Source: Bacillota bacterium
GTDB lineage: Bacteria > Bacillota > Clostridia > Acetivibrionales > Acetivibrionaceae
Assembly (NCBI GenBank): GCA_049325575.1
Contig: JBMOLK010000188.1
Coordinates: 2,758 to 66,757, forward strand
Length of the DNA stretch: 64,000 nucleotides
Reading direction: 5' to 3'
A program made the translations under genes and the position numbers. Shown here piece after piece: positions 1 through 37,726 of the stretch (position 1 is the first letter of the stretch; each line of letters starts with the position of its first letter). The notes under the pieces were generated by a model, which was given only the letters and a program-made list of their open reading frames with translations, was not told the origin of the DNA and did no database searches.

Positions 1-1302
1 CAAATTAAGCTTATAGCTTATCATGATGCGCTGACCGGACTCCCAAACCGCTATCTGTTAAATGATTACCTGACTCAGACTCTCTTGCAGTGCAGAATTA
101 ATAAATCCCAACTGGGAGTAATGTTTATTGACCTGGATAGATTCAAGATTATAAATGACACAATGGGGCACAGCTTTGGAGACAGTATCCTAAAGCAAGT
201 ATCAGAGAGACTTAGTAAGTGTGTGCGCAGGGATGATATTGTTTCACGCTATGGCGGCGATGAATTTGTAATAGTATTAAACGGAATTGATAAGGATAGC
301 TGCTCACAAATAGCCCGTAGGGTAATTGATGCCTTCAGTCAGCCTTTTTGCGTAAACAGCCATGATGTATTCTCTACTCCAAGCATAGGAATAAGCTTTT
401 TTCCAAAGGACGGCGACAATGTTGAAACACTTCTTAGAAATGCCGATGCAGCAATGTATCTGGCAAAGGAGCTTGGTAAAAACAATTATCAATTTTACAA
501 TGAAAATATTAACAAGACAGTATCAAGAAAAATGGAACTGGAAAACGGTCTTAGGAAGGCTCTGGCTAACGGGGAGTTTGTGCTGCATTACCAGCCCCAG
601 GTAGATCTGGAGTCGGGCAAAATATCAGGAATTGAAGCTCTTATCCGCTGGCAAAACCCTGTTCACGGACTGATTCCTCCTTCCGAATTTATTCCACTTT
701 CAGAGGAGACAGGTCTTATAGTTCCTATTGGTCAATGGGTGCTTGAAACAGCTTGCAGGCAAAACAAGATGTGGCAGGAGGCGGGATTTCCTGCTGTTCC
801 AATAGCCGTCAATGTTTCGGTTAATCAGTTGTTGTATTCGGATTTTGTAACGGTCTTAAGACAGACACTGGATAAAACCAGGCTGGACCCACAGTATCTT
901 ATAATAGAGATAACTGAAAGCGTGATGCAGGATATAGAAAAAACATATGAAATTATAAAAAGCTTAAAGTCATTGGGGATTAAAGTAGCTATTGATGATT
1001 TTGGTACTGGGTATTCATCAATAAGCCTTCTTAAGAATCTTAAGTTTGATATATTAAAAATAGACCCTTCTTTCACAAGGGACTTTAGTGTCAATCACAG
1101 TTCGGTTGTTCTGGTAAAGTTCATTATAGATCTGGCCCACGAGCTTGATTATTTTGTGATTGCAGAAGGTATTGAAGATAAAAACCAGGCAATGATACTA
1201 AAGGAGAAGAACTGTGACTTAGGACAAGGATATTACTTTAGCAGACCTCTACCGGGCGAAAGTCTGGAAAAAATCCTGAACAATACATATCACCAAATCT
1301 AA
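1..1302 (+). CDS. GGDEF-EAL domain protein (diguanylate cyclase/phosphodiesterase), 5' end outside window
   Basis: Frame 1 is open from base 1 and reads [10 protein letters not shown]...RYGGDEF (GGDEF). It continues with EALIRW...DDFGTGYSS (EAL) motifs, so the ORF-track start at 85 is internal. Confidence 0.85.
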
Positions 1303-3540: not shown

Positions 3541-3541
3541 T

Positions 3542-7742: not shown

Positions 7743-7984
7743 GTGAAATTAAAGCGGATTCCTTTGTAGATATTACCGATGTGGTTTGTCCCATGACTTT
7801 TGTGAAAGCCAAGGTTGCCATTGAGGAACTGGAGGACGGGCAGGTTCTAGAAGTGAGGATGAACGAGGGAGAGCCAATAATGAACGTGCCTAAAAGCTTT
7901 AAAGAGGAAGGCCACAAGGTTATAAACGTAACAAACAATAATGACGGAACATTTACAGTGTTTGTTGAAAAGGGTGGAATATAA
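7739..7984 (+). CDS. TusA/SirA-like sulfurtransferase
   Basis: DITDVVCPMTF matches the CPxP-type TusA motif. A likely start at 7739 has a GGAGGAGG RBS, whereas the ORF track starts at 7700. Confidence 0.55.
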   Translation: MSEIKADSFVDITDVVCPMTFVKAKVAIEELEDGQVLEVRMNEGEPIMNVPKSFKEEGHKVINVTNNNDGTFTVFVEKGGI

Positions 7985-9214: not shown

Positions 9215-9232
9215 CTTGATGCGGAGGTAGCT

Positions 9233-10141
9233 TTGACGATGTATGATGTAATAATAGTAGGAAAGGGCCCGGCGGGCTTGTCGGCAGCACTTTATACATT
9301 AAGGGCAAATCTTAGGACACTGGTCATAGGTAAAAGTGACAGTGTTCTTTTAAAGGCTGAAAAAATAGAGAATTATTTCGGGTTTAAGGATACTGTAAGC
9401 GGCAGTGAACTGCTTAATGCAGGAGAACATCAAGCTCTGAAGCTGGGAGCCGATATTGTGGACGAAGAGGTTCTTGGTATAAACCAAAGCGAAGGCTTTG
9501 AAGTAATCACCTCTAAAAACAAGTACGCAGGCATAGCAGTGCTACTGGCAGCAGGTCAGCCCCAAAAGAAACTTAAGATTGAAGGGTTGCAGGAATTAGA
9601 GGGTAGAGGCGTAAGCTACTGTACGACCTGCGATGGTTTTTTCTACAGGGGATTGAAGGTTGGTGTTCTTGGCAACAGTGATTATGCAGTGCATGAAGCA
9701 GAGGAACTCAAGGCTTTTACCAATAATATCACAATATATACAAATGGACGTGATCTTCAGTATAAGGGCGATTATAATGACATTATGAAAAGTTTTAATA
9801 TCGAAAGTAAAAGTATCTTAAAGCTTGAAGGGGATGAATACCTTCAATACATATGCTTTAGTGATGGCTCAAAAGATAGAATAGACGGGCTGTTTATTGC
9901 AAATGAAAGCGCTTCCAGTATTGACTTCGCAAGAAAGCTGGGAGTAATTACAGAAGGTGCATCAATCATTGTTGACAAAGAACAAAAAACCAATGTGGAA
10001 GGGCTGTATGCCGCCGGCGACTGTACAGGAGGCTTTAAGCAGATAGCTACAGCAGTTGGCCAGGGGGCCCTTGCAGCAAGGCATATAATTGAATTTGTAA
10101 GGAATTTAAAAAAGGGCGCTGCATCTGATACTGTAATTTAA
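9233..10141 (+). CDS. trxB: thioredoxin-disulfide reductase-like FAD/NAD(P) oxidoreductase
   Basis: GKGPAGLSAALY FAD motif and CTTCDG redox CxxC. Confidence 0.7.
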   Translation: MTMYDVIIVGKGPAGLSAALYTLRANLRTLVIGKSDSVLLKAEKIENYFGFKDTVSGSELLNAGEHQALKLGADIVDEEVLGINQSEGFEVITSKNKYAGIAVLLAAGQPQKKLKIEGLQELEGRGVSYCTTCDGFFYRGLKVGVLGNSDYAVHEAEELKAFTNNITIYTNGRDLQYKGDYNDIMKSFNIESKSILKLEGDEYLQYICFSDGSKDRIDGLFIANESASSIDFARKLGVITEGASIIVDKEQKTNVEGLYAAGDCTGGFKQIATAVGQGALAARHIIEFVRNLKKGAASDTVI

Positions 10142-10211
10142 AAGACAAGCAAGAGATGATAGCAATTAAAAAGAGCACAGGAGCAAATAAAGCTTATCAT
10201 TGTGCGCTGGC

Positions 10212-10244
10212 AGCACCCTGCCTTTGGGGTGCTTTCTTCTTCTT
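10212..10244 (+). terminator. rho-independent terminator of sulfur operon
   Basis: AGCACCC-TGCCTTT-GGGGTGCT hairpin followed by TTCTTCTTCTT. Confidence 0.55.
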
Positions 10245-10663
10245 AATTCATTCCTATTTCATGTGAAACAGGTCTTGTAGTTTCCAGCCGTCAATTAATC
10301 AGTATTTATATTCGGATTTTGTAAAGTAGGCACATAGTCTTTACTGAATAATGATGCCTATTTTTCTTATGTCTACAAATAAATTTCCATAAGTGGTTTA
10401 TATACCTGCGTAGAGTATATAAAAAATATACCTTTTTTTACCCAGGTATTTAAATAATAATATCATTAAAAGTTCATTATTAAGAAAAAATCTATAGAAG
10501 TTAACCTTTCAAGTGGCAAGTGGCTCTGGGATTAAAAACAGCAGGCATTCAATGGTTGAAGAGAATACTGACAGGCATCAGCAGTTAGATATAGAGTAAA
10601 GGGTTTAAACAGCCTGGACAAGTATGAAGAGATACTTAATTAAGTTACAAGGGGGGAATTCCA

Positions 10664-11809
10664 GTGGTTATCAAAAATATTGTTGTTGGTGCCGGCTTTG
10701 CCGGAAGTATTATGGCCCGGCTTATTGCAGAAGAAAAGGGTGAAGAAGTATTAGTTGTTGAAAAAAGAAATCACATCGGTGGTAATGCATTTGATTTTTA
10801 CAATGAAGATGGAATCCTGGTACATAAGTATGGCCCGCACATATTTCATACCAACAGCAAGTCAGTTTGGGATTATCTGTCCCGGTTTACCAAGTGGAGA
10901 TTATATCAGCATAAGGTTCAAGCGTTTATTGATGGACAGAAAGTGCCAATTCCCATAAACATAGACACCATCAATAAGCTGTATGGTACATGTTATAACG
11001 CTGATAATATTGAGGCTTTTTATAACTCAATACGGGTATCCCGGGATAGTATTGAGAACTCTGAAGATATGGTAATAAGTAAGATTGGAACGGAGCTATA
11101 TACAAAGTTTTACAAGCACTATACAAAGAAACAGTGGGATTTATATCCAAATGAGTTGGATCCGGAAGTAACTGCCCGAATACCTGTTAGGCCAAATAGA
11201 GATAACAGATATTTTTCAGATATGTATCAGGGTATACCAAAGCATGGATATACAAGGATGTTTGAAAACATTCTGGACCACCCTGGAATACATGTATTAC
11301 TAAACACCGATTTCCAAAAAACCAAGGATCACTTTAATTGTGAGAAGATAATATATACCGGATGTATTGATGAGTTCTTTGGGTTTAAATTTGGCAAACT
11401 ACCATACCGTTCACTTGATTTTGAATTTGAAACCTTAGAGCAGAAAGAGTTTCAGGAAGTAGGAACAGTAAATTTTCCTAATGACTATGATTTTACAAGA
11501 ATTACGGAGTTCAAACACCTCACAGGTCAAAAGTCTTGCAAAACCACTATCATGAGAGAGTATCCATGTGCTGACGGGGAACCGTATTATCCCATACCTA
11601 AAAAAGAGAATAATGAATTATACAAAAAATATATCACAGAGACAAGAAAACTGGAGGGAGTTTATTTTTGCGGGAGGCTTGGGAGCTACCAATATTATAA
11701 TATGGACAAGGTTGTAGAAAATTCCATGCAACTTTTTACGTTGATTTTCAAAGACAGTTCTAGCAATAGGAGAGCAATAAAACCATACAACAAAACTATT
11801 AACTTTTAG
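10664..11809 (+). CDS. glf: UDP-galactopyranose mutase
   Basis: VVGAGFAGSIMARLIAE...HIGGNAFD...GPHIFHT N-terminal FAD motif typical of UGM. Confidence 0.85.
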   Translation: MVIKNIVVGAGFAGSIMARLIAEEKGEEVLVVEKRNHIGGNAFDFYNEDGILVHKYGPHIFHTNSKSVWDYLSRFTKWRLYQHKVQAFIDGQKVPIPINIDTINKLYGTCYNADNIEAFYNSIRVSRDSIENSEDMVISKIGTELYTKFYKHYTKKQWDLYPNELDPEVTARIPVRPNRDNRYFSDMYQGIPKHGYTRMFENILDHPGIHVLLNTDFQKTKDHFNCEKIIYTGCIDEFFGFKFGKLPYRSLDFEFETLEQKEFQEVGTVNFPNDYDFTRITEFKHLTGQKSCKTTIMREYPCADGEPYYPIPKKENNELYKKYITETRKLEGVYFCGRLGSYQYYNMDKVVENSMQLFTLIFKDSSSNRRAIKPYNKTINF

Positions 11810-12981
11810 TGGAAGTAGTGAATCTAAGTTTAAAAGTAACTATGCAACAAATCACTGCGAGGAGGGTTAAAATGAATAATTTGCAAAGCTATGAAAGCAT
11901 TTCAATTATTATAATTACGCATAACCGGCAGGAGCTGGTGAAAAGGTGTATTGAATCGGTAATGACTGCAGTGGGTTCTTATAGGGGACAAGTTGAACTT
12001 ATTATTGTTAATAGTTCTACCGAGCCTTTAGGTATTAAAGGAGATTTTATAAAAGAAATATATGTACCGGAGATACCAAAACCATATAAAAAGAGAAATA
12101 TAGGAGCAAAAGAGAGTAAGTTCGAATGGTTATTATATCTTGACGATGATTGTATAGTTGATAAGGATATACTAAACATTCTAAATGGCAATATTGCTAA
12201 GGCAGGTAATAAGGTTGGAGGCTTTTATGGAGTTACACAGTTTTTTGGAGATATGACTTATGCATCAAAGTGCTGTGAGAATTCAAATTTTACAAACATA
12301 TTCAAGGCTCCTGAGTATCAGGACGAAATGGCATGGGGTGCTGCAGTAGCTCCACTATTTAGAAAGAAAGCTCTTCTTGAGGTCAACGGATTTTCCGAGC
12401 AGTTTACATCGCCGGTTGGAGGAGAGGATTTGGATTTTGGGGTTAAACTAAATGAAAAAGGGTGGATTTTAAAGGGTATACCCAAGGTTCTTTCTTATCA
12501 CGGATATGAAACCTGGAACTCCTATACCGGCAACCTAAAAAGGTTCTTTAGATACGGGATGGCTGAAACCGGTATAGTGGAGAATCACCCAAGGCATACC
12601 TTTCTAAAGCTTAATTCCTTAATTTTTCTGATCATACCGGTTTTGATAGATCTAGTGCTTTTCTATTCAGGTATTGCTGCACTATTGATTAAAATTCTGA
12701 TTTACTTGTTTGCTACTTCTATTGTCTCTATCTTTTATTATAAATTTAAGAATAAGATACCGTTTCACTATGCAGTCGGACTTGTTTTTTATGATCGGGC
12801 CTTTGAACTTGGTGCAACATTTTCTTCTATTATAACAAGAAACATTAAGACTTTGTTTTTAAGATTTGAGTATCAGAAGCAACGAAAGTTTCTTATTAGA
12901 AATCCCCTTACAAATGTATTGCTTCTACTGGAGCTGTCCAGTGTTGTTATAACTATACTGTTAAATCACACTATTCTTTAG
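11809..12981 (+). CDS. family-2 glycosyltransferase with C-terminal multi-TM domain
   Basis: ISIIIITHNRQELVKRCIESV and YLDDDC (DxD) GT-A motifs, with ~5 TM helices in the C-terminal 130 aa. The more plausible start is 11872 (MNNLQ), which has an AGGAGGG RBS. Confidence 0.7.
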   Translation: MEVVNLSLKVTMQQITARRVKMNNLQSYESISIIIITHNRQELVKRCIESVMTAVGSYRGQVELIIVNSSTEPLGIKGDFIKEIYVPEIPKPYKKRNIGAKESKFEWLLYLDDDCIVDKDILNILNGNIAKAGNKVGGFYGVTQFFGDMTYASKCCENSNFTNIFKAPEYQDEMAWGAAVAPLFRKKALLEVNGFSEQFTSPVGGEDLDFGVKLNEKGWILKGIPKVLSYHGYETWNSYTGNLKRFFRYGMAETGIVENHPRHTFLKLNSLIFLIIPVLIDLVLFYSGIAALLIKILIYLFATSIVSIFYYKFKNKIPFHYAVGLVFYDRAFELGATFSSIITRNIKTLFLRFEYQKQRKFLIRNPLTNVLLLLELSSVVITILLNHTIL

Positions 12982-13036
12982 CAATACAAAATCAATATTA
13001 ACTGGTGATTTTATAAACAGGAGGGAGTAAAACCAA

Positions 13037-14644
13037 GTGTATATGGATATAGTACCAAAGCAGATAGATAGAATAGGTACAAGCAACAACGGAGCATTTT
13101 GTTTTGACGATTGTATTGCAACATACGCGGGATACATTGGACGAAGCTATGAAATGATGTATGGCAACTGCTGGAGCTTTAGTCTAATTCCAGGACGGAT
13201 GAATGATACAACTTCTTTGGTAGAAATAATGAATACTGATAGAAATGAAAGCTATAGATTACTTGAAAAGCTTCATGGTATTAAATTGAAGAGAGAGAAG
13301 CTTTTAGAGAGTAGTAAAGCAAAAAGCTATATATTAGAGGAGTTGGAAGCCGGAAGGCCTACGGTATTTATAACAGATGCTTTCTGGTGTCCCTGGGACC
13401 CTGTGTTTCAGAAATACCATAATATTCACGCTTTCCTGATAGTCGGCTTTGACGAAACAAATAATAGTTTTATTTGTGTAGACAGCTATTTCCTAAAGTG
13501 CAATTCAGTCCTGCCGATGGAGTGCTTTATTAATGGCTATAAAGGCATATACTCCTTTGAAGCATTACCTGAACCTGTCGTTATAAATTATGAGGAAGTA
13601 ATAAGAGATCATGCGAAAAGTTTACTTTCAGGATGCAGTGGGGAAAATCATTTTGAGTTGATGCGTAGTTTTGGCAGTGAATTAATGAATATAGACATAA
13701 AAAGGCAGCTTGAAGACAGCGGTGAGTTTTGGTTATGCCCTATATTCCAGGTATTCAATTATATAATTTCTACCCGGGTTTTATATGCAAACGCTTTAAA
13801 ATACATTGCTGATAAATCCAATATCAAATATGTGGCTGAAATTTTGGAGTCTTTCCTTCTGGTTATTGAAAAATGGAATGTGGCTAAGGGAATGCTTATT
13901 AAATCCTTTAGCCTAAATAACACGCATACCGAAGTAGTGAGGAAGCTTAGCGATACAATAATTGAGCTGGCCAAAGAAGAGGAAGGGCTTGCTTTGGATA
14001 TAACTAAAGCAAATATTGACCAACTGAATATCAAAGCATCTATAAAGGATAATAAAGTAAGCAGGCAAGATATAATAAATTATTCATGTAACGATTATGT
14101 TTTTATTGACCTGTCCGGCTATTTAAACAATAAAGGCTTTGATACATATCCTCCTAAAAGCCCTATGTCCGACTTTACAAGTTATGGACACTATTTCATT
14201 AGAGAGGAAGATTTTATAAGAGATACATGGAATGTTGGAGATATGTTGTTTAAAGTACACATAGACCCTAACGAAACATATGACAATGTATCATGCATGG
14301 GGCAGGAGATATCAGTTCCAGAGGGTTATTATGGAAGGATTCGGATTATGGGGTGTTCGGAATATGGAAGCTACACGGATAAAGTTGGTATATACACAAC
14401 AGGTGGAAATGTATATAGCATTCCCATAACGTTTTATGAGTGGTGTGATAATTCAAACAAGGATATCCTGGCATGGAAGGGAAGAATTGCTCACAAAAAA
14501 GAAAACGAAGTATTGATCATTGATCAGGAACACAAGATCTATGCAAAAGAGTTTGTACTAAGCTATAACGAGAAGATAAACAAAATTAAACTACCGGAGT
14601 GTCCCAATTTGCATTTGTTTGCAATATCAATGCTTAAGTCTTAG
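13037..14644 (+). CDS. hypothetical protein, possibly BtrH-N/papain-like (GAFCFDDC Cys motif)
   Basis: 535-aa ORF with strong coding periodicity and no confident family assignment. Confidence 0.3.
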   Translation: MYMDIVPKQIDRIGTSNNGAFCFDDCIATYAGYIGRSYEMMYGNCWSFSLIPGRMNDTTSLVEIMNTDRNESYRLLEKLHGIKLKREKLLESSKAKSYILEELEAGRPTVFITDAFWCPWDPVFQKYHNIHAFLIVGFDETNNSFICVDSYFLKCNSVLPMECFINGYKGIYSFEALPEPVVINYEEVIRDHAKSLLSGCSGENHFELMRSFGSELMNIDIKRQLEDSGEFWLCPIFQVFNYIISTRVLYANALKYIADKSNIKYVAEILESFLLVIEKWNVAKGMLIKSFSLNNTHTEVVRKLSDTIIELAKEEEGLALDITKANIDQLNIKASIKDNKVSRQDIINYSCNDYVFIDLSGYLNNKGFDTYPPKSPMSDFTSYGHYFIREEDFIRDTWNVGDMLFKVHIDPNETYDNVSCMGQEISVPEGYYGRIRIMGCSEYGSYTDKVGIYTTGGNVYSIPITFYEWCDNSNKDILAWKGRIAHKKENEVLIIDQEHKIYAKEFVLSYNEKINKIKLPECPNLHLFAISMLKS

Positions 14645-14653
14645 CGGATTTGC

Positions 14654-17600
14654 ATGGTGTTTAGGGGGGAGAATATGAGTAATGTTGGTATGGAAAATAA
14701 GGTTAAGCTTTATCCACTAACCCATCCTCAAAAGAGAATATGGTATGGGGAAGTGCTTAATAAAGATACTTCCCTTTACAATATCGGAGGACCTGTAAGA
14801 ATAAGGGGATATGTAGATTTTGGTACTCTGCAGCAATCCATAAACATTTTTATAAAAAAGAATGATAGCTTAAGGATGCGGTTTAATGAACAAAACGGTG
14901 AAATAAAGCAGTATATTAGTGAATTCAAAGAGACTAAAATAGATTTTTTTGATTTCAGTACATGCAAAAATCCTGAAGATGAGTTTAACAAGTGGATAGA
15001 ATACGAAGCCGGTAAGAGATTTGACTTAAAAGAAGATTATTTATATTATTTTGCAATGTTTAAAAATGGCGAGTACGATTCCGGATACTTTGTTAAATTT
15101 CATCACTTGATAGCCGATGGCTGGTCAATGCAGATTTTGACAAGCCAGATTTGTGATATTTACATGAAACTTTTACATGGCTCCAGGATAGATGAAGAGG
15201 TTGAATATTCGTATTTAGAATATATTGATAGGGAGCAGAAGTACTTATTATCCGATAAGTTCATTAAAAACAGGAATTTTTGGAAACAAAAATTTCAAAC
15301 ATTGGATGAGGTGTATTTTGGTAAATCTTCTGAAAGCATCAAAGGGAATAGAAAGACTTTCAGGATGGATAAGGATAAATCCCTGAAGATAAAAAACTTC
15401 TCAAAAGAAAATAAATGCTCCTTGAACACACTGTTTGTTTCCTTATATTTAATCTATTTGTATAAGACAACACAACATCAAGATTTGATTATTGGAGTCC
15501 CTGTACTAAATAGATCAGGAAAAAGAGAAAAAAGCATATTTGGGATGTTTACAAGTACAATGCCTTTTAGAATGTATATAAAAGGCTCAATGACGGCAGC
15601 AGAATTTATAAACCATGTAAACAGCGAATTGATGGAATGCTATTTCAATCAGAAATATCCCTATGATCTTTTGGTGCAGGATATTGAGCTTAAGAAAAAG
15701 GGCTATAATGAGTTGTTTAATGTATGCATTAATTATTATAATACCAGGCTTAATACCGAATTTAACGGTGCTTTAACAGAAAATACGGAGTTTTATAATG
15801 GGAATCAGCTTTATTCGATGCAGATTGTTATTAAAGAATGGGAAGACTTAGGAGAAATAAACCTGGACTTTGATTATAAGTCAGGTGATTTTAGTGAAGA
15901 ACAGATCGAAAATATGTACATGTATTTAAGTAACCTGATTGATCAGATTACAGCAGATTCAATGGCTGTTATCGGATCGTTAAGGCTGCTTCCCGACTCT
16001 TCCAGGAACAGACTCATTTATGAGTTTAATTCAACATGTGTAGATTACCCGAAAAACAATACAATATTCCAGCTGTTTGAGGAGCAGGTTTGCAGGACAC
16101 CTGATAAGACTGCGGTAAGCTTTAATGGGAAAAGCATTACTTATAGAAAGCTTAACAAAAAAGCAAACCAACTTGCCAGACTGTTAAGATACAAAGGTAT
16201 TGGAAGAAATACTGCTGTAGGATTTATGACAACCCACTCAATAGAAACTGTTATAGGAATCCTGGGTGTTATAAAAGCAGGGGGTGCTTATGTGCCTATC
16301 GATCCCTGCTATCCTATGGAAAGAATAAACTATATCCTTGAAGATTCCAAGGTATCAGTTCTGCTTGCCAATTGTAGTCTGGATGGCGGTTTGGATTATA
16401 AGGTGGATATTATTGATCTTAGGGATGAAACCATATATAAAGGTGAAGCAAGTAATCCTGATTTAATAAATGAAATGAATGACCTGGTTTATATTATTTA
16501 TACTTCAGGTTCTACAGGAAAGCCTAAAGGCACAATGATAGAGCACAGGGGGCTTGTTAACTATATATGGTGGGCAAAAAAGATGTATGTAAGACATGAG
16601 GATGATGTTTTTGCGCTTTATTCTTCTTTATCCTTCGATCTTACAGTAACCTCGGTTTTTACACCACTTATAAGCGGGAATAAAATCATGGTTTATGCAG
16701 ATGACGGCGAAGAGTTTGTTCTTTACAGGATACTTGGAGATAATCAAACTACTGTTCTAAAGCTAACACCGGCACATTTATCATTGATTAAGGATTTGGA
16801 TAATAGTAATTCATCAGTTAAAAGGCTTATCGTTGGAGGAGAAGACCTAAAGGTTGTTCTTGCGAAGAGTATCTATGACAGCTTCGGAGGAGACATAGAA
16901 ATATTTAATGAGTATGGCCCTACAGAGACAGTGGTTGGCTGTATGATCCACAAGTATGATGTTGAAAAAGATACTGAACAATCAGTGCCTGTTGGTATAC
17001 CTGCTGATAATGTGCAGATCTATATTCTTGATAAAAATCTTGAGCCTGTACCTTTAGGAGTAAGCGGAGAAATTTACATTTCGGGAGATGGTGTAGCAAG
17101 AGGTTATCTGAATAGACCGGAGTTAACAGCTCAAAAGTTCATTGACAATCCATTTATTAAAGATAAGAGAATGTATAAGACAGGTGATATTGCCAGACAC
17201 CTGCCTAACGGTATAATTGAGTATTCAGGCAGGGCAGACTTTCAGGTTAAGATAAGAGGTTACCGTATCGAATTGGGTGAGATAGAGAATCAGATATTAA
17301 AAATAAAAGGTGTTGATGATGTTGTAGTTATAGACAGGGAAGACTCTTTAGGCAGCAAATACCTGTGTTCATATATTGTTTCAAAGGTACAAATGCCGTT
17401 AACAGAGATAAGGCAGTATTTGTCAGGTGTTTTACCTGATTATATGATCCCATCAAGGTTTGTATCCTTAGATAGAATTCCCCTTACAACCAACGGGAAA
17501 GTAAACAGACAGCTTTTACCCGAACCTTTGGAGGAAAATATTGATGAATCTGACTGTGTTTGCTTTAATAATAAAACAGAAGAAAAGATTATAAAAACTA

Positions 17601-19189
17601 TCAAGGAAGTGCTTAATGTTGCCAGGATAAACAGGAGAGATAATTTCTACCGGCTTGGCGGCGATTCAATTAAGGCAATTCAAATTGCAGCAAGGCTAAA
17701 CGAACTTGGCCTTAAGATAAGAGTAAAGGATATTCTATCTAAAAATGTAATTGAAAAAATCATGGCATGTGTTGAGACTGACACTGCATTTGAAGCTTTG
17801 GAAAACAAAGCCTTAGAAGGAGAAATCGGAATAACGCCAATTGTATCATGGTTTTTTGAGCAGCATTTTAAAAACCCCAATTATTATAATCAATCGGTAT
17901 TACTTTCCCTAAATACAAATGTTGGACTTGACAATATGGAGCAGGCAATAAATATATTAATCAGACATCATGATGCCCTAAGAATAAATTACAGCAGCCA
18001 GAAGGGTATTTTATATTATAACAATGACTATCTAAATGAACATCAGAAACTGCAGATATTTGACCTATCTTTCGTTCCCTTAGATGAACAGAAGGTAAAA
18101 ATGAGACAAATCTGTGAAGAGATAAAATCATCCCTGGATATTGAAAAGGGGATTTTATTCAAGGCTTGTGCGTTAGAGCTTGGTCATTACGGCAGGAGGC
18201 TTCTTTTAACAGGGCATCACCTGATTGTGGATGGTGTATCCTGGAGAATTCTGCTTGAGGACCTTGCCAGGGTTTTAGGTTCTCTGGAGAAGAATATTGA
18301 GTTGTCTCTGCCTCAAAAGTCAAGCTCACTCAAGGAATGGGCTTCACAGCTTTTAAAGCTTGGTCAGGGCAGCCTTAAACAAGAAAGAGAATATTGGAAT
18401 AACGTTATAAGCAGTAGTTTCAGTTTTCCGGTTGATTTTGATCTCGGCCATGACAATATAGAAAACTGTAACGTGAAAAGGTTTGTAATTGATGCTGATG
18501 ATACTGAAAATCTGTTAACCACAGCAAATGCTCCTTATGGTACAAATCCTAACGATCTGCTCCTTACTGCTTTGGTTGCAGCTATTAGGAAGATGTATGC
18601 TGCTGATGAGGTTGTAATAGAGCTGGAGGGACATGGAAGAGAAGACCTGTTTGACAGGTTGGATGTTACAAGGACTGTTGGCTGGTTTACAAGTATCTTT
18701 CCTGTAAAGCTTAAAGCTGTTGGTTCGGATTTAGGATCACAAATCAAGTCTATCAAAGAGCAGCTAAGGAGAGTTCCCAATAAAGGGATTGGGTTTGGTG
18801 TTTTGAAGTACATGTCAAAATTAGTTCCAGTCTGCGATAAAAGGTATGCAAGATTTAATTACCTTGGGGAGTTTGACAATAGTCAGGATGAAAATATTTA
18901 TAAAATATCACTTGAAGACTCGGGTCCTGACTCGGCTAAATCCAACCACTTGACATGTTTATTAGATATAAATGCATTGGTTTTAGACAAAAATTTAAAT
19001 ATATCAATAACTTACAGCAGAAACAAATACCTGGACGAAACGGTTGAAAAACTTATGAAGGAATACAAAAATTCACTGGCAAGTGTAATAAAACATTGCT
19101 TAGGCAAAAGACACTCTGTTGATTTTACACCATCAGATTTTGAAACATTAAATATCTCACAGGATGAACTTGACCAACTTTTTATATAG
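14654..19189 (+). CDS. NRPS module C(starter)-A-T-E with asparagine-type specificity code; ClbN-like prodrug-motif loader
   Basis: HHLIADGWS (C); YTSGSTGKPKG, NEYGPTE, YKTGD, GRADFQVKIRGYRIELGEIE (A); LGGDSIKAIQ (T); ITPIVSWFFEQ and HHLIVDGVSW (E). The hand-aligned Stachelhaus positions give D-L-T-K-I-G-E-V-G-(K). Confidence 0.9.
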   Translation: MVFRGENMSNVGMENKVKLYPLTHPQKRIWYGEVLNKDTSLYNIGGPVRIRGYVDFGTLQQSINIFIKKNDSLRMRFNEQNGEIKQYISEFKETKIDFFDFSTCKNPEDEFNKWIEYEAGKRFDLKEDYLYYFAMFKNGEYDSGYFVKFHHLIADGWSMQILTSQICDIYMKLLHGSRIDEEVEYSYLEYIDREQKYLLSDKFIKNRNFWKQKFQTLDEVYFGKSSESIKGNRKTFRMDKDKSLKIKNFSKENKCSLNTLFVSLYLIYLYKTTQHQDLIIGVPVLNRSGKREKSIFGMFTSTMPFRMYIKGSMTAAEFINHVNSELMECYFNQKYPYDLLVQDIELKKKGYNELFNVCINYYNTRLNTEFNGALTENTEFYNGNQLYSMQIVIKEWEDLGEINLDFDYKSGDFSEEQIENMYMYLSNLIDQITADSMAVIGSLRLLPDSSRNRLIYEFNSTCVDYPKNNTIFQLFEEQVCRTPDKTAVSFNGKSITYRKLNKKANQLARLLRYKGIGRNTAVGFMTTHSIETVIGILGVIKAGGAYVPIDPCYPMERINYILEDSKVSVLLANCSLDGGLDYKVDIIDLRDETIYKGEASNPDLINEMNDLVYIIYTSGSTGKPKGTMIEHRGLVNYIWWAKKMYVRHEDDVFALYSSLSFDLTVTSVFTPLISGNKIMVYADDGEEFVLYRILGDNQTTVLKLTPAHLSLIKDLDNSNSSVKRLIVGGEDLKVVLAKSIYDSFGGDIEIFNEYGPTETVVGCMIHKYDVEKDTEQSVPVGIPADNVQIYILDKNLEPVPLGVSGEIYISGDGVARGYLNRPELTAQKFIDNPFIKDKRMYKTGDIARHLPNGIIEYSGRADFQVKIRGYRIELGEIENQILKIKGVDDVVVIDREDSLGSKYLCSYIVSKVQMPLTEIRQYLSGVLPDYMIPSRFVSLDRIPLTTNGKVNRQLLPEPLEENIDESDCVCFNNKTEEKIIKTIKEVLNVARINRRDNFYRLGGDSIKAIQIAARLNELGLKIRVKDILSKNVIEKIMACVETDTAFEALENKALEGEIGITPIVSWFFEQHFKNPNYYNQSVLLSLNTNVGLDNMEQAINILIRHHDALRINYSSQKGILYYNNDYLNEHQKLQIFDLSFVPLDEQKVKMRQICEEIKSSLDIEKGILFKACALELGHYGRRLLLTGHHLIVDGVSWRILLEDLARVLGSLEKNIELSLPQKSSSLKEWASQLLKLGQGSLKQEREYWNNVISSSFSFPVDFDLGHDNIENCNVKRFVIDADDTENLLTTANAPYGTNPNDLLLTALVAAIRKMYAADEVVIELEGHGREDLFDRLDVTRTVGWFTSIFPVKLKAVGSDLGSQIKSIKEQLRRVPNKGIGFGVLKYMSKLVPVCDKRYARFNYLGEFDNSQDENIYKISLEDSGPDSAKSNHLTCLLDINALVLDKNLNISITYSRNKYLDETVEKLMKEYKNSLASVIKHCLGKRHSVDFTPSDFETLNISQDELDQLFI

Positions 19190-19231
19190 CAGAATTCAGG
19201 TACTTTAATATTAAATTGTGAGGGCTTAACT

Positions 19232-30600: not shown

Positions 30601-32498
30601 GCAAAATTCTGATTTTTGCTGATGAAAAGGGGATGGCCGATAATCTTGCATCAAAGCTTAAAACTGCACAAACCGAAGTTGCTATGGTGAATTTCGGCTG
30701 TGAGTATTTTAAGATCAGTGATGAAAAATATATTATATCTTCTAAGGAAAGGGATTACAAACGATTATTTAGTGAAATTGACCTTAAAGATATTGCTCAC
30801 ATTATTCACATGTCCAGTATATTGGGGAATTCAGAAATAAAAGATGTTAATGAGCTTGAAAGAAGCCAGGATATGGGAGTGAGAAGCCTTTTTCATATTG
30901 TTAGGGAGCTGCTCGGTATTGGCACAACAAACAAAGTGAATGTGTATCTTATTTCCCAATATGCCAACAGGGTAACTGGAAAGGAAAAAAGGATAAATCC
31001 TGAAAATGCAACACTATTTGGACTGGGCAAAGTCATTGAGCAGGAGTATCCAAACCTTAGCTTAAGATGTATAGATATAGATTTGGAAACTTCCATAAAT
31101 GAAATTTTTAAAGAAATATCAGCTTATTTGCCATCCAACCTGGTTGCCTACCGCGCTGGAAAGCGATATGTTGAAGAATTTAGAAGGCTTGAGATCGGTC
31201 AGATTTTAAGGCAGGACGTTTCCATAAAAGACAATGGTGTTTATTTGATTACCGGAGGATTAGGCGGCATAGGGCTTGAAACAGGAAAGTATATTGCGTC
31301 CAAGAATAGGGCAAATATCGCATTAATAAGCCGGTCAGAGCTTCCACCAGGTGAAGAGTGGGAAAAGATTCTAAGAGACGGTACTGACAGTATGTTGTGT
31401 CACAAAATAAAGGCCATTAAAGAAATTGAAGGCATGGGGTCAAGGGTAACATGTATTAGTGCTGATGTATCAAATGAAGAAGAAATTGCAGCTGCCGTTA
31501 ATGGATTGCGCCAAGTTTACGGAAGAATAAGGGGTGTAATACATAGTGCAGGGCTGGCGGGAGACGGGTTTATAATCAAAAAGAATCAAGAAGAATTTGA
31601 TAAGGTACTGTCCCCAAAGGTTAGAGGTACATGGCTTTTGGATATGTTAACCAGGCAGGATAAACCTGATTTCTTCATTATGTTTTCTTCAAATAATACT
31701 TTAATGGGTGTACCGGGGCAGGGGGATTATACAGCGGCAAACAGCTACCTGTGTGCATTTTCCGACTATAGGAATATAAGAGGTGAGAGAACACTGGCTA
31801 TAAACTGGCCTGCATGGAAGGAAACAGGTATGGCAGTTAACCATGGTGTCAACTTTGACAGTATTTTTAAGGCTATGCCTACAAAGCAGGCTCTAGATGC
31901 TTTCGATTTAGCCATAGGTCTTAATGTGAACAGGGTTATAATCGGTGAATTGAATGTTGGCGGTTCTATACACGGTAAAACAATATATGATGCAAAGATT
32001 AGTTTGTCAGAGCAAATAAAATCAAGGATAGACAGGAAAAACGAAAGTACCCCTGTAAAGAAGGGACTTAACGAAAAGGTTAAAGATATAAAGGTGGCAC
32101 TTAAAGGTAAAAAAACTGGAGACTTTACGGAGGAAGAAAAAATAATGGCAGGAATATGGAAGGAGGTTCTTGGATTTGAAGAGTTTGATATTTATGAAGA
32201 CTTCTTTGATATAGGAGGAGACTCTATACTGATAACAAAGGTACAGGCTTTGGCAGAGGAACGATTTCCCGGAAGAATTTCAGTTTCAGATCTTTTTTCT
32301 TACAGGACTATTTCAGATTTGGCTAAGCATTTATCAAAAGAACAGGATAAGCTTAAAGAGCAGCATTATATAGATATAAAGCCTATGTCATCCAGCTCTG
32401 ATATGGACAAAGGCATAAACGAACTTCTAGATGCAATACATAAGGGTGATATTGATATTGACAAGGCTGTTGAAAGCTATAAGTCTATGGGGGTATAG
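27681..32498 (+). CDS. trans-AT PKS module KS-(AT-less linker)-DH-KR-ACP
   Basis: DTTCSSSL, EAHGTGTKLGDPIE, SNIGHLD (KS); HxxxGxxxx-type DH motif (HRIMGDCVLVG); ITGGLGGIGL (KR); IGGDSILITK (ACP). No AT domain lies between the KS and the DH. Confidence 0.9.
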   Translation: MLNFENIRLNINKKPAPVELEEISKKDIAIIGAAIKLPMANTLEEYWNNLRNGIDCVRSIPDSRKRDADDILSQMDIDVSTVKYAEAAYLDEIDRFDYSFFKLAPKEACLMDPNQRLFLETAWNAVEDSGYGGTKLVGSRTGVYVGYGSDPDYKRLISSAEPEAASFALTGNVRPIIASRLSYLMDFRGPSLLVDTTCSSSLMAVHLALRGIRNGECELAIAGGVQVHILPVRQTKIGIESSDGRAKTFDDGSDGTGTGEGVIAIVLKSLSKALEDGDNIYAVIKGSAANHDGASIGLTAPNAEAQEDVIVRAWKESGIDPSTISYIEAHGTGTKLGDPIEIDGIQRAFRRFTGRKSFCAVGSVKSNIGHLDNTAGIAGLLKAVLALENKQIPPTLHFKYPNRKINFEESPVYVNNKLSDWNTEGFPRRCGVSAFGLSGTNVHIILEEAPLRSKEEYVTEAALNVFTLSAKSKAVLREMADNYTKFLEKNKGLNIKDICYTANTGRGHYGFRLAVLAKDNYELLERLRELSVSEFDYISNRRIFYGEHKLAPVNKEVLGEGEVTEAVVKETSIAAESKIRDFLSSAKESEDLIVEICKAYVKGAEINWEEFYKGRKYKRISLPSYAFEKKRCWVEAKGSSKRKVDYARDVQWSLLDNQVAESMGVDIYSTSFSVDSHWVLNEHRIMGDCVLVGTAYLEMAIQACHKHFQGVFVEFRDIVFVKPLVVREGEYKDVQTIITSRNGFYEFTVVSNGGFDDLGQVIWVRHVEGKILGCRERDIKAVDVSEIRDRNREGYFIPDIDSYNADSVFEFGPRWKNIREMYIGDGELLSHIKMPDMFTGELMDYVLYPSLMDNAIATMPLLDKLLKNSPFSGENGIFLPFSYKRLRILRSLPAEFYSYVKLKGDISDGSESVTFDIVLLDKSGEAFAEIEEYTLKKAKKNQMPQSKAGTSDIYYEVAWIPQDITVREKDIKKGKILIFADEKGMADNLASKLKTAQTEVAMVNFGCEYFKISDEKYIISSKERDYKRLFSEIDLKDIAHIIHMSSILGNSEIKDVNELERSQDMGVRSLFHIVRELLGIGTTNKVNVYLISQYANRVTGKEKRINPENATLFGLGKVIEQEYPNLSLRCIDIDLETSINEIFKEISAYLPSNLVAYRAGKRYVEEFRRLEIGQILRQDVSIKDNGVYLITGGLGGIGLETGKYIASKNRANIALISRSELPPGEEWEKILRDGTDSMLCHKIKAIKEIEGMGSRVTCISADVSNEEEIAAAVNGLRQVYGRIRGVIHSAGLAGDGFIIKKNQEEFDKVLSPKVRGTWLLDMLTRQDKPDFFIMFSSNNTLMGVPGQGDYTAANSYLCAFSDYRNIRGERTLAINWPAWKETGMAVNHGVNFDSIFKAMPTKQALDAFDLAIGLNVNRVIIGELNVGGSIHGKTIYDAKISLSEQIKSRIDRKNESTPVKKGLNEKVKDIKVALKGKKTGDFTEEEKIMAGIWKEVLGFEEFDIYEDFFDIGGDSILITKVQALAEERFPGRISVSDLFSYRTISDLAKHLSKEQDKLKEQHYIDIKPMSSSSDMDKGINELLDAIHKGDIDIDKAVESYKSMGV

Positions 32499-32502
32499 TT
32501 TG

Positions 32503-34548
32503 ATGGACAAAGTCTATAAAATGTTATTTGAGAATATTACTTCAGGAAAAGTTGACAGGAAAGCAGGGGTGGATATTCTAAAAGCTTTAAAGGAAGAAGA
32601 AAATCACAATACCAGAGATGATATGGCCATTATTGGAATATCTGCAAAGTTCCCTGGTGCGGAGAATATAAGTGAATTCTGGACAAACCTAAGAAGCGGA
32701 GTAAACAGTATTACAGATTTTCCGGAAAACAGACGCCAGGACTCGGATGCTTTTGTACCATTCACATATATGAAGAATGAAGATGTAAAATACTGCAAAG
32801 GTGGATATCTTAAGGAAGTAGACAAGTTCGACCATAGGTTTTTTGGAATTTCACCCAAAGAAGCAAGTCTTATGGATCCAAGTCAAAGAATCTTCCTTGA
32901 AACAGCATGGAATGCCATTGAAGATGGAGGGTACGGAGGCAAAAAACTTATGGGAAGCAGGACGGGCTTGTATATTGGATATTCCGGGTGGCCCATGTAT
33001 GGACAGTTTGTATCCCATGTTGAGCCAGCAGCTTTTGATGTCTCGGTTACAGGAAATATTTCAGCCATTATTTCAAGAAGAATACCTTACCTGATGGATA
33101 TGAGCAGTCCCAGCATGCTTATAGATACTGCATGCTCATCATCCCTTGTAGCACTCCATCTAGCATGCCAGGGCATAAGAAATGGTGATTGTGACCAGGC
33201 ATTGGTGGGAGCAATAAGACTTTTGCTGATGCCAATTGAAGGGATGATTTCATATGGCATTGAATCAAAGGACTATAACTCCAAACCTTTTGACGATAGT
33301 GCAGATGGTACAACCCTTAGCGAAGGCGTGGCTGCTATTTTGATTAAACCTTTAAGGAAAGCAATCAAGGATAGAGATAATGTCTATGCTGTTATAAAAG
33401 GAACTGCCTGCAACCAGGATGGAGGTTCAGTCGGACTTACTGCTCAAAGCGCTGCTGCCCAGGAAAATGTAATTGTTAAGGCCTGGGAGGATTCAGGCAT
33501 AAATCCGGAAACAATTTCATATATCGAAGGTTTCGGGGCTTGTACCAAGCTGGGTGATACCTTGGAAATAGAAGGCATTCAAAGGGCGTTTGGAAGATAT
33601 ACCCATAGAAAACAATTCTGTGGGATAGGATCAGTAAAATCAAATATTGGCCATCTTGATAGCTGTTCAGGACTGGCCGGACTGATAAAGTCGGTTCTTT
33701 CCCTAAAGCATAGGGAGATACCTCCTACTTTGAACTTTAGAAACCCTAATAAATCGATAAATTTTGAACAGTCACCAGTTTACATAAATGATAGATTAAA
33801 AAAATGGGACTCTGATATTGCTAAAAAAAGGTGCGGTATAAGCTCCTTTGGTTTTAGCGGTACAAACGCCCATGTTGTACTTGAAGAGGCAGCAGAGATT
33901 AATGTAGAAAGGAATTTAACAAAAAAACACTTCTTTATATTTGTTCTGTCTGCAAAAAGTAAGGAATCCCTGGAGGAGCTTATAAAAGCATATAAAGATT
34001 ATGTAAGAAATGAGAAAGAGGTAAGACTTCATGATATATGCTATACTTCCAGTACCGGAAGGGGGCATTACAATTACAGGCTGGCATTGATAGCAGAGAG
34101 TGAAGCAGAATTTACAGAGAAGCTGGAAAAACTTGACGCAGCGGAAGTCATTAATAATAGGGAAGATAATGTTTATTTTGGGTGGCATAAAGCTGTACCG
34201 GCTAATAAGGAGTTTAGACAGGACGGGGAATTGACCGAGTCTGAAATAAGAGAATACGGGAAAGCAGCAAACTTGCTGATAGACAAATACAAAAAAGATA
34301 TTTATGGGGAAAAAAGTATATTAGCAGAACTGTGCGGGTTATATGTAAAAGGAGCTGATTTAGATTGGGAGCGACTATACGAGGGTGATAAATACTACAG
34401 GATAAGTTTACCCGTATATCCCTTTGAAAGAAAAAGGTGCTGGATTAATGTAAAGAAAAAGCCTGAAGAATATATAAAACCAGGTACCAAAACAGATAAA
34501 GCCCGTTTAGAGAATGTACTTGATGAAAATATTGATTTTAAGTTTTAG
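32503..34548 (+). CDS. stand-alone non-elongating ketosynthase (KS0) with flanking linker subdomain
   Basis: The active-site Cys is retained (DTACSSSL), but the HGTGT histidine is replaced (IEGFGACTKLGD) and SNIGHLD is present. The probable start is at 32503 (MDKVYK) with a GGGGGTA RBS, not 32431. Confidence 0.75.
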   Translation: MDKVYKMLFENITSGKVDRKAGVDILKALKEEENHNTRDDMAIIGISAKFPGAENISEFWTNLRSGVNSITDFPENRRQDSDAFVPFTYMKNEDVKYCKGGYLKEVDKFDHRFFGISPKEASLMDPSQRIFLETAWNAIEDGGYGGKKLMGSRTGLYIGYSGWPMYGQFVSHVEPAAFDVSVTGNISAIISRRIPYLMDMSSPSMLIDTACSSSLVALHLACQGIRNGDCDQALVGAIRLLLMPIEGMISYGIESKDYNSKPFDDSADGTTLSEGVAAILIKPLRKAIKDRDNVYAVIKGTACNQDGGSVGLTAQSAAAQENVIVKAWEDSGINPETISYIEGFGACTKLGDTLEIEGIQRAFGRYTHRKQFCGIGSVKSNIGHLDSCSGLAGLIKSVLSLKHREIPPTLNFRNPNKSINFEQSPVYINDRLKKWDSDIAKKRCGISSFGFSGTNAHVVLEEAAEINVERNLTKKHFFIFVLSAKSKESLEELIKAYKDYVRNEKEVRLHDICYTSSTGRGHYNYRLALIAESEAEFTEKLEKLDAAEVINNREDNVYFGWHKAVPANKEFRQDGELTESEIREYGKAANLLIDKYKKDIYGEKSILAELCGLYVKGADLDWERLYEGDKYYRISLPVYPFERKRCWINVKKKPEEYIKPGTKTDKARLENVLDENIDFKF

Positions 34549-37703: not shown

Positions 37704-37726
37704 TGACCATAGAGGGAGGTAATAGA

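What the first reader, a model, noticed from the sequence alone, without database searches (positions are those of the whole stretch)
10160..10330. Decayed fragments of a GGDEF/EAL gene in the junction before the island
10176-10215 (AAATAAAGCTTATCATTGTGCGCTGGCAGCACCC) matches the window start (AAATTAAGCTTATAGCTTATCATGATGCGCTGACCGGACTCCC). 10275-10318 (AGCCGTCAATTAATCAGTATTTATATTCGGATTTTGTAA) matches 804-848 of the intact gene. The two pieces lie ~100 nt apart instead of ~800, and the first carries a 7-nt deletion and a stop. This is a paralog remnant that marks an old rearrangement or insertion boundary next to the accessory island.
Basis: seen in the sequence. Interest (0 to 1): 0.55.

Follow-up and report, generated by a model that had tools for sequence, protein, structure and literature searches.

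The report
Decayed GGDEF-EAL gene relic at junction
About 165 bases after the last gene of a sulfur-assimilation operon are the shrunken, dead remains of a second copy of the c-di-GMP signalling gene that sits just upstream of that operon: an ordinary pseudogene fossil that marks an old rearrangement point.

Summary
Window 10163-10326 aligns collinearly, on the same strand, with the PAS-GGDEF-EAL gene whose 3' part is window 1-1302 ("gene A"). Identity is 128/161 aligned bases. The spliced-alignment score is 130, against 57 +/- 6.4 (max 81) for shuffles.

10200-10285 matches A 641-725, the conserved EAL motif RWQHP..FIP..ETGL, so the relic is continuous rather than two islands.

About 870 nt of parent sequence have shrunk to about 164 nt. 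The losses are 625 nt (or 7+617), 78 nt and 8 nt, with stops and frameshifts.

The relic's conceptual peptide is closer to A (38/53) than to any of A's 120 nearest database homologs (at most 30/53). It also shares residues that are rare in the family. It is therefore a dead sister copy of A.

The relic starts 21 nt after the stop of the trxB-like gene. In most of the nearest relatives siroheme/haem genes follow that gene. Here the relic and a roughly 28-kb NRPS/PKS cluster follow instead, so this is a genuine synteny break.

The only terminator-like hairpin after the operon lies inside the relic. That may be exaptation, which is inferred and not shown.

This is ordinary biology and of low interest.

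The parts
1..1302 (+). 3' 1302 nt of the intact PAS-GGDEF-EAL gene 'A'. The full gene is 2577 nt / 858 aa, and the window starts at its nt 1276. It is the closest known relative of the relic.
   Evidence: Pfam GGDEF 2.7e-50 and EAL 1e-75. The full gene was recovered on L089:1494-4070, which is identical to the window over a 5421-nt overlap.
9239..10141 (+). trxB-like NAD(P)/FAD oxidoreductase, the last gene of the sulfate-assimilation operon (DUF2061, cysH, cysD, cysN/C, thiS, thiF, JAB, sulfite reductase, tusA, O-acetylhomoserine sulfhydrylase, trxB-like). Its stop is at 10139-10141.
   Evidence: Pfam. The operon block is conserved in L001-L015.
10142..10162 (.). Breakpoint interval. These 21 nt lie between the trxB-like stop and the first base recognisably derived from the GGDEF-EAL gene.
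   Evidence: No similarity to gene A above chance: score 15 against shuffles 16.1 +/- 2.2.
10163..10197 (+). Relic piece 1: the PAS-to-GGDEF linker (conceptual LKRAQEQIKLI vs A IKSAEEQIKLI). It corresponds to gene A window-equivalent -20..14.
   Evidence: 30/35 identical. BLASTN 28/31, E 7e-7. The linker also matches homologs P0003, P0043 and P0015.
10198..10209 (+). Ambiguous junction. Either CATTGTGCGCTG is A 22-33 (HDAL, 10/12), followed by a 617-nt deletion at the repeated CGCTG. Or it is the start of A 641-651 (9/11), after a single 625-nt deletion at the repeated TTAT.
   Evidence: Direct reading; alternative alignments.
10200..10285 (+). Relic piece 2: the start of the EAL domain (conceptual IVRWQHPAFGVLSSS*FIPISCETGLVV). 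It corresponds to A 641-725 and has an in-frame TAA at 10246-10248 and a 1-nt insertion at 10281.
   Evidence: 61/85 identical. E 2.6e-13, z 12.5. tblastn hits to many EAL proteins at 5e-10.
10286..10326 (+). Relic piece 3: EAL domain (conceptual AVN / SINQYLYSDFV). It corresponds to A 804-812 and 821-852. A 726-803 (78 nt) and 813-820 (8 nt) are missing.
   Evidence: 9/9 and 28/32 identical. Gene A ranks first of 121 proteins for this piece. Repeat family D11.
10212..10244 (+). Terminator-like element inside piece 2: an 8-9 bp G+C-rich hairpin (AGCACCC(U)...GGGGUGCU) followed by UUUCUUCUUCUU. It lies 71 nt after the trxB-like stop.
   Evidence: It is the only terminator-like site in 9900-10900 on either strand. 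MFE -15.2 kcal/mol, against -7.8 and no such hairpin for the homologous stretch of gene A.
10327..10663 (+). The rest of the spacer up to glf. It shows only marginal, AT-rich similarity to the remainder of gene A (for example 10416-10451 vs 1050-1085, 27/36). It presumably holds the promoter of the glf/NRPS-PKS cluster.
   Evidence: Spliced score 42 against 33.2 +/- 4.3, with 6 of 200 shuffles as good. Promoter-like sites at 10437-10466 and 10568-10597.
10664..38753 (+). The 'island': glf, GT2, a BtrH_N/C39-like protein, NRPS modules, a beta-lactamase-ABC fusion, a trans-AT acyltransferase and PKS modules.
   Evidence: Pfam. Absent from this position in all relatives examined.

Best explanation
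Window 10163-10326 is a non-functional relic of a second copy (a sister paralog or duplicate) of the PAS-GGDEF-EAL gene A. Gene A ends at window 1302, just upstream of the sulfate-assimilation operon.

The copy was cut off on its 5' side in the PAS-GGDEF linker (A nt about 1255 of 2577). The cut falls exactly where the operon now ends, 21 nt after the trxB-like stop. Being useless, the copy was then whittled down by the deletional decay typical of bacterial pseudogenes. One deletion of about 620 nt between short direct repeats (TTAT or CGCTG) removed the GGDEF domain. Further 78-nt and 8-nt deletions, a 1-nt insertion and about 20% substitutions followed. Everything 3' of A position about 852 was lost or is unrecognisable.

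The relic therefore marks a lineage-specific rearrangement joint. In most of the nearest relatives the cys operon runs on into hemA and/or a sirC-type siroheme gene. Here it abuts the relic and an NRPS/PKS gene cluster.

Shown: the homology, the lesions, the sister relationship to A and the synteny break.

Inferred: the history. One possibility is that the relic is the novel joint of a segmental duplication spanning [A 3' half ... trxB-like], whose second copy was later lost or replaced. The other is that the cys block landed inside the second gene of a tandem A-A' pair. I cannot separate these.

Also inferred: the hairpin plus U-run at 10212-10244, built from former EAL coding sequence, now serves as the operon's intrinsic terminator.
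For: Homology: (128/161 identical; collinear; same strand; spliced score 130 vs 57 +/- 6.4, max 81).

EAL identity of the middle piece: (tblastn 5e-10 to 6e-6).

Lesions. There are stops in all frames, the longest ORF is 36 aa, and 625 + 78 + 8 nt are missing.

Sister relationship to A. The relic matches A at 38/53 positions and the 120 nearest homologs at no more than 30/53. It shares Ser at the (A)EETG position, which only A has among 121 sequences, and also N275 (not among the five commonest residues in that column), L278 (2/120) and Y279 (6/120). A ranks first for piece 3.

Synteny break. 14 of the 19 nearest loci carry a sirC-type gene within about 2 kb after trxB-like. hemA starts 28-36 nt after trxB-like in L001 and L084. 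No such gene lies in the 54 kb downstream in the window.

No GGDEF/EAL gene lies beside the cys operon in L001-L015.

Not an artefact: (three independent contigs).

Terminator.

Deletional decay of bacterial pseudogenes is established knowledge (PMC2916853, PMC2817411, PMC6054270, titles and abstracts seen).
Against: No genome of intermediate relatedness was found. The nearest TrxB-like proteins are only 74-79% identical. An intact version of the second copy, or the pre-rearrangement state, was therefore never observed.

For the middle piece alone, many unrelated EAL proteins score as well as A or better. The sister relationship rests on about 53 codons.

Identity is uneven: 86-90% in pieces 1 and 3, and 72% in piece 2.

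No trace of the rest of a duplicated segment survives right of 10326. No trace of a 5' half survives in 1303-1860. The origin scenario therefore has no direct support.

Terminator function is predicted only. The hairpin's z-score against shuffles is a modest -1.9.
Confidence: 0.85

Rival explanations
1. Origin variant 1 (segmental duplication joint). A tandem duplication of the segment running from A nt about 1255 through the trxB-like stop created the joint 'trxB-like stop | A linker'. The redundant second copy was then deleted or replaced by the NRPS/PKS cluster, leaving only its first about 165 nt.
For: One event explains the same orientation, the mid-gene start immediately after the trxB-like stop, and the sister relationship to the gene lying directly upstream of the operon.
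Against: No residual similarity to the rest of A, to DUF2061 or to the cys genes exists right of 10326: 95 vs 98 +/- 8 against the whole operon, and only marginal (6/200 shuffles) against A's 3' end. This variant also needs separate events to bring A next to the operon and to remove the hem/sirC genes.
Confidence: 0.35
2. Origin variant 2 (insertion into a tandem paralog). Gene A had a tandem duplicate A'. The cys block (promoter-DUF2061-cysH...trxB-like) was relocated into A' at the linker. The 5' half of A' was deleted and the 3' half decayed.
For: Both flanks of the cys block differ from the relatives. There is no GGDEF/EAL gene beside it in L001-L015, hem/sirC genes lie downstream in most relatives, and a sulfate-transporter-sized gene set lies between the conserved promoter and cysH in L009. 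A single relocation would explain both flanks.
Against: No trace of a 5' half of A' exists in 1303-1860. Only about 40 nt separate A's stop from the first operator-like box of the cys promoter region (D2). No mobile-element hallmarks are present: no tRNA, no flanking repeats, and no integrase or transposase among the ORFs scanned.
Confidence: 0.35
3. The relic is not a duplicate of A. It is the stump of an unrelated EAL-family gene, for example one that arrived as the edge of the NRPS/PKS island.
For: The middle piece matches generic EAL proteins as well as it matches A. The island is absent from relatives.
Against: Across all pieces A is clearly the nearest: 38/53 vs at most 30/53. The shared rare Ser in SEETG is unique to A among 121 sequences, and A ranks first for piece 3. 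The nucleotide identity of 86-90% in pieces 1 and 3 is far above what A shares with its best database homolog (64% aa). Glf relatives in metagenomes (at most 58% identity) have no GGDEF/EAL neighbour.
Confidence: 0.08
4. The region is a functional element, either the 36-aa ORF at 10156-10266 or a cis-regulatory RNA for glf. Its resemblance to the EAL gene is then incidental to its present role.
For: An ATG ORF of 36 aa exists. The region lies in the 3' UTR of one operon and upstream of another.
Against: There is no Rfam family in 9900-10900 at E <= 1 apart from an rli43 chance-level hit, and none at gathering score in the whole window. The ORF has no spaced Shine-Dalgarno sequence, mixes two ancestral reading frames and runs through the terminator hairpin. 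Conservation cannot be assessed, because only same-strain copies exist.
Confidence: 0.03
5. The similarity is due to chance or low complexity.
For: The spacer is AT-rich. Matches beyond 10326 are at noise level.
Against: z = 12.5 (local) and z = 11.5 (spliced) against dinucleotide shuffles. The reverse-complement control scores 66 vs 130. Among 181-nt tiles of the rest of the window (from 1401 on) scored against A, the highest-scoring tile (45, at 10270) lies in the relic, and the tile starting at 10089 scores 31.
Confidence: 0.01

Closest known systems
Bacterial pseudogene relics shrinking under deletional bias (Kuo & Ochman, PMC2916853 and PMC2817411; indel spectra in PMC6054270)
   Same: It is a duplicated or disrupted gene with an intact relative. 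It has stops and frameshifts. Deletions far outweigh insertions: about 711 nt lost against 1-2 nt gained across the aligned span. The largest deletion is flanked by a 4-5 nt direct repeat.
   Different: It is unusually far gone, with about 19% of the covered parental span left, yet still recognisable. It was identified in a free-living cellulolytic-clade Clostridia genome, not in a reductive symbiont or pathogen.
PAS-GGDEF-EAL c-di-GMP turnover proteins (Pfam PF00990 + PF00563), e.g. the window's own gene A
   Same: The relic retains the pre-GGDEF linker, the RWxHP...FIPxxEETGL block and the (V)NxSxxQ block of the EAL domain, in the right order and orientation.
   Different: There is no GGDEF domain, no EAL signature triplet and no open reading frame. 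It cannot encode an enzyme.
Intrinsic (rho-independent) terminators
   Same: It has a G+C-rich 8-9 bp stem, a 4-6 nt loop and a U-rich tail, 71 nt after the last stop codon of an operon, on the same strand.
   Different: It lies within sequence that is homologous to the coding sequence of an EAL domain. The homologous stretch of the live gene has no such hairpin. Function is untested.

Membership tests
EAL domain gene (PF00563), as a derived remnant | Sequence homology to the EAL domain, collinear with an intact family member | tested here: met
   10200-10285 and 10286-10326 align with A 641-725 and 804-852. tblastn hits to EAL proteins reach E 5e-10.
EAL domain gene (PF00563), as a functional member | Uninterrupted ORF covering the about 236-residue domain, including the EAL signature and downstream catalytic residues | tested here: not met
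   At most 45 codons survive. There is a TAA at 10246-10248, frameshifts at 10281 and after 10294, nothing beyond A 852, and the E-A-L triplet itself is replaced by K-L-I/I-V.
GGDEF domain gene (PF00990) | Presence of GGDEF-domain sequence | tested here: not met
   A 16-640 (or 34-645) is absent. At most 12 nt (HDAL) of the domain's first residues may remain.
Duplicated-gene pseudogene | A closest intact relative in the same genome, with shared derived characters | tested here: met
   38/53 to A against at most 30/53 to the 120 nearest homologs. The Ser in SEETG is unique to A among 121 sequences.
Duplicated-gene pseudogene | Neutral evolution, meaning no conservation in relatives | not testable with these tools
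   Only same-strain contigs carry the region. The nearest other genomes are 74-79% identical in TrxB-like protein and lack the region.
Intrinsic terminator | G+C-rich hairpin followed by a U-run, downstream of and co-oriented with the last gene | tested here: met
   9 pairs (5 G-C), 4-nt loop, then TTCTTCTTCT. MFE -15.2 kcal/mol.
Intrinsic terminator | Transcripts end there in vivo | not testable with these tools
   Needs Term-seq or 3' RACE.
Integrative genomic island boundary (att site, tRNA, integrase) | tRNA or tmRNA target, flanking direct repeats, integrase or transposase gene | tested here: not met
   No tRNA in the window. No direct repeat pairs the junction with the far side of the cluster. 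No integrase or transposase domains in the ORFs scanned.
Known cis-regulatory RNA (Rfam, e.g. c-di-GMP riboswitches) | Covariance-model match | tested here: not met
   No hit at gathering score in the window. Only an rli43 hit at E 0.68 in 9900-10900.

The most novel reading that the evidence does not exclude
After the rearrangement severed the cys operon from the downstream hem/sirC genes, the operon acquired its intrinsic terminator by mutation of dead EAL-domain coding sequence. The relic persists because about 35 nt of it are now under selection as that terminator. This would be a documented case of a terminator born from a pseudogene.
Probability: 0.35. Interest if true: 0.3.

Novelty: new member of a known kind. 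Interest (0 to 1): 0.15.

Why it matters
The main value is for annotation and genome history. The relic shows that the 522-nt 'intergenic' spacer between the sulfate-assimilation operon and the NRPS/PKS cluster is partly a gene fossil. It pins a lineage-specific breakpoint to a 21-nt interval. It also shows that the neighbouring c-di-GMP gene once had a local duplicate. It gives a clean small example of deletional pseudogene decay: about 870 nt reduced to about 164 nt, with the main deletion between short direct repeats. It may also show coding sequence being recycled into a terminator. It opens no new mechanism or long-standing question.

Tried and rejected
(1) Synteny in related genomes. A genome-contig scan with the TrxB-like protein and a 5.8-billion-protein search found nothing closer than 79% aa identity apart from same-strain contigs. 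No relative has a GGDEF/EAL gene beside the cys operon. No intact ancestor of the relic could be found.

(2) A search with gene A. The best homolog is only 64% identical, so there is no candidate for an intact second copy.

(3) A metagenome scan with Glf, to look for the island elsewhere with a GGDEF-EAL neighbour. The best hit is 58% identical, with no GGDEF/EAL gene and no shared neighbours.

(4) Extending the relic rightwards. 10416-10451 vs A 1050-1085 (27/36) and other small collinear blocks are at or near shuffle level. I do not count them.

(5) Extending it leftwards into 10142-10162: no signal.

(6) Looking for the missing 5' half of the second copy in 1303-1860: nothing.

(7) Looking for other A-like DNA in the 64 kb: none.

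(8) Rfam on the spacer and on the whole window: nothing.

(9) A microhomology claim for the 78-nt deletion. I considered it (GTTCC at 721-725 and 796-800). It needs an extra 3-nt deletion, so I left it open.

(10) The small ORF 10156-10266. I rejected it as a gene because it has no properly spaced RBS, mixes two ancestral frames and reads through the hairpin.

(11) Exact-protein look-ups failed for the TTG-start TrxB-like ORF and for the DUF2061 ORF. OAH sulfhydrylase and CysD worked.

Full report
CONTEXT

The window comes from a low-G+C member of the Ruminiclostridium/Acetivibrio group. The nearest TrxB-like proteins belong to R. cellobioparum, R. hungatei, R. papyrosolvens and related MAGs, at only 70-79% aa identity.

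- Window 1-1302 is the 3' part of a GGDEF-EAL gene (Pfam).
- 1613-10141 is a sulfate-assimilation operon: DUF2061, cysH, cysD, cysN/C, thiS, thiF, JAB, sulfite reductase, tusA, O-acetylhomoserine sulfhydrylase and a trxB-like oxidoreductase.
- 10664-38753 is a glf-GT2-BtrH_N-NRPS/trans-AT-PKS cluster.
- The finding lies in the 522-nt spacer between the trxB-like stop (10139-10141) and glf (10664).

Yes.

10200-10295 aligns with 641-736 at 70% identity over 96 nt (E 2.6e-13). Its score is 49, against 20.4 +/- 2.3 (max 31) in 1000 dinucleotide-preserving shuffles, z = 12.5. The minus strand gives only noise.

Conceptually this piece reads IVRWQHPAFGVLSSS*FIPISCETGLVV. That is the conserved start of the EAL domain, and dozens of EAL proteins hit it at about 5e-10.

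I recovered the whole parent gene on Logan contig L089. It is 858 aa, with PAS domains, GGDEF and EAL, and the contig has a 5421-nt overlap with the window and no mismatch. The match then extends 20 nt beyond the window start. 10163-10197 aligns with the PAS-GGDEF linker at 30/35 (28/31 by BLASTN, E 7e-7).

A spliced alignment that allows long deletions scores 130. Shuffles give 57.1 +/- 6.4 (max 81) and the reverse complement gives 66.

Three independent metagenome contigs carry the same spacer with 0-1 SNP. It is not an assembly artefact.

ANATOMY

In the core, 128 of 161 aligned bases are identical (79.5%). By piece this is 86% in piece 1, 72% in piece 2, and 100% and 88% in the two blocks of piece 3.

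Relative to gene A the relic lacks the following.
- A 16-640 (625 nt, at a repeated TTAT). Equally well, it lacks one unit of the AGCTTAT tandem plus 617 nt at a repeated CGCTG. The two alignments score alike.
- A 726-803 (78 nt).
- A 813-820 (8 nt).

It has a 1-nt insertion at 10281. Everything from A 853 on is gone or unrecognisable: 42 vs 33.2 +/- 4.3, with 6/200 shuffles as good.

The first deletion removes essentially the whole GGDEF domain and the first third of the inter-domain region. All three frames carry stops, and the longest ORF in the spacer is 36 aa.

To the left, 10142-10162 shows no similarity to A. The relic therefore begins 21 nt after the trxB-like stop.

WHOSE REMNANT IS IT?

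Many EAL proteins match the conserved middle piece as well as A does. Over all surviving codons, however, A is clearly the nearest. It matches at 38/53 positions, against at most 30/53 for each of the 120 closest database homologs of A.

The relic and A share states that are rare in the family:
- Ser in place of Ala in the (A)EETG motif (A is the only one of 121 sequences with Ser; 118 have Ala).
- Asn275.
- Leu278 (2/120).
- Tyr279 (6/120).

For piece 3, A ranks first of 121. A's own best database homolog is only 64% identical. The parent of the relic was therefore a lineage-specific sister copy of A. No other A-like DNA occurs in the 64 kb.

IS IT A BOUNDARY?

Yes. The cys block from cysH to trxB-like is conserved in order in L001-L008, L012, L015 and L084, with shorter versions of it in several other relatives. 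In L001 hemA starts 28 nt after trxB-like and is followed by a sirC-type gene (NAD_binding_7), hemC and hemD/cobA. L084 has the same layout with a 36-nt gap. A sirC-type gene lies within about 2 kb of trxB-like in 14 of the 19 nearest loci.

The window has no such gene in the 54 kb downstream. None of L001-L015 has a GGDEF/EAL gene on either side of the operon. So both the intact gene A upstream and the relic downstream are specific to this lineage, and the right-hand break falls within 10142-10162.

The NRPS/PKS cluster shows no integrative-element hallmarks. There is no tRNA, no flanking repeats and no integrase domains. No close relative of the cluster was found in JGI metagenomes.

HOW IT MOST LIKELY AROSE AND WHAT IT DOES NOW

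Shown: a sister copy of A, truncated in the PAS-GGDEF linker at the end of the cys operon, and shrunk by deletions.

Inferred: the route. Two histories fit equally well.

(a) A segmental duplication spanning A nt about 1255 to the trxB-like stop. Its novel joint is exactly 'trxB-like stop | linker', and the redundant second copy was later lost or replaced by the cluster.

(b) A tandem pair A-A' into whose second member the cys block was relocated.

History (a) is not backed by any residual cys-like sequence right of the relic. History (b) is not backed by any 5'-half remnant left of the operon. Only about 40 nt separate A's stop from the operon's first operator-like box. I give each about 0.35.

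The decay pattern matches the deletional bias documented for bacterial pseudogenes: many deletions, almost no insertions, and a short direct repeat at the largest deletion (PMC2916853, PMC2817411 and PMC6054270, seen).

The relic has no coding function. The only terminator-like structure between trxB-like and glf lies inside it, at 10212-10233 plus a U-run. Its MFE is -15.2 kcal/mol. The homologous stretch of live gene A folds to -7.8 kcal/mol without that hairpin.

In L001 and L084 trxB-like runs straight into hemA, so a terminator at this point would be a novelty of this lineage. Recruitment of dead EAL coding sequence as the cys-operon terminator is therefore plausible (about 0.35-0.4) but untested.

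COMPARISON WITH KNOWN KINDS AND VERDICT

This is a pseudogene relic of a GGDEF-EAL gene. It is not a member of the functional EAL or GGDEF families, because it fails the ORF and catalytic-motif tests and lacks the GGDEF domain. It is not a known RNA family. It is not an att-type island boundary.

It is a new instance of a well-known kind of feature. It is useful for annotating the spacer and for reconstructing the locus history, but it would not surprise a specialist.

Interest 0.15.

Noticed in passing
window 10664-38753: A roughly 28-kb biosynthetic cluster with an unusual start: UDP-galactopyranose mutase, a GT2 glycosyltransferase and a BtrH_N/peptidase-C39-like protein. These are followed by NRPS modules, a beta-lactamase-ABC-ATPase fusion (19232-22387), a free acyltransferase (trans-AT) and PKS modules. 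A PPTase lies further right at 62193-62903. The closest Glf in JGI metagenomes is only 58% identical, and none shares the neighbouring genes.
   Followed up: partly
window 1345-1373, 1423-1465, 1570-1598, 56053-56081, 57989-58029, 60866-60915, 60950-60990; L009:1350-1448: A repeated operator-like motif, (C/T)AGTAAACCTATAGGAAT or ACTAAACATATAAGAATACT. It sits upstream of the cys operon, of an Rrf2-family regulator gene (58024-58488) and of the cysK-like gene (61058). Around 1395-1470 it forms part of a TTGACA/TAAAAT promoter. That promoter is 76% conserved with a site upstream of a four-ORF set that precedes cysH in relative L009 (the ORF sizes would fit a sulfate ABC transporter, not checked). 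It looks like a CymR-type sulfur regulon (from memory of the B. subtilis CymR box, not tested).
   Followed up: partly
window 41408-49270: A co-oriented three-gene set. Proteins of 209 aa and 700 aa have no Pfam match. They are followed by a 1653-aa protein with DUF3686 ('ATPase involved in DNA repair'), DUF7902 and an AAA domain. This could be a defence-type or repair-type system. It was not scanned against PADLOC.
   Followed up: no
window 1-64000: There is no Rfam family at gathering score and no tRNA anywhere in the 64 kb. Several sulfur-amino-acid genes are present (cys operon, two Cys/Met PLP enzymes at 58523-60858, cysK-like at 61058), and in many Firmicutes such genes carry S-box or T-box leaders. 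Regulation here appears to be protein-based (Rrf2).
   Followed up: partly
window 10100-10141 (last ~10 codons of the trxB-like gene): The C-terminal tail of the TrxB-like protein (...RNLKKGAASDTVI) does not align with relatives. Their matches stop at residue 288-291 of 300, and L001 ends ...REKSSRSEAK. The true rearrangement breakpoint could therefore lie a few codons inside the gene's 3' end and not strictly after its stop.
   Followed up: partly
L087:1200-5950: In this relative (ENA ERZ24910820) the cysD, cysN, thiS, JAB and OAH-sulfhydrylase genes are called as many short ORFs (43-197 aa). This is either a frameshift-ridden assembly or a decaying cys operon.
   Followed up: no
L089:1494-4070: The organism is barely represented in public data. 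Exact copies of its proteins occur only in contigs from SRR22138397, SRR22138398 and SRR32167786. The 858-aa gene A was not returned by the large protein search, whose best hit was 64% identical, although a Logan contig encodes it.
   Followed up: partly
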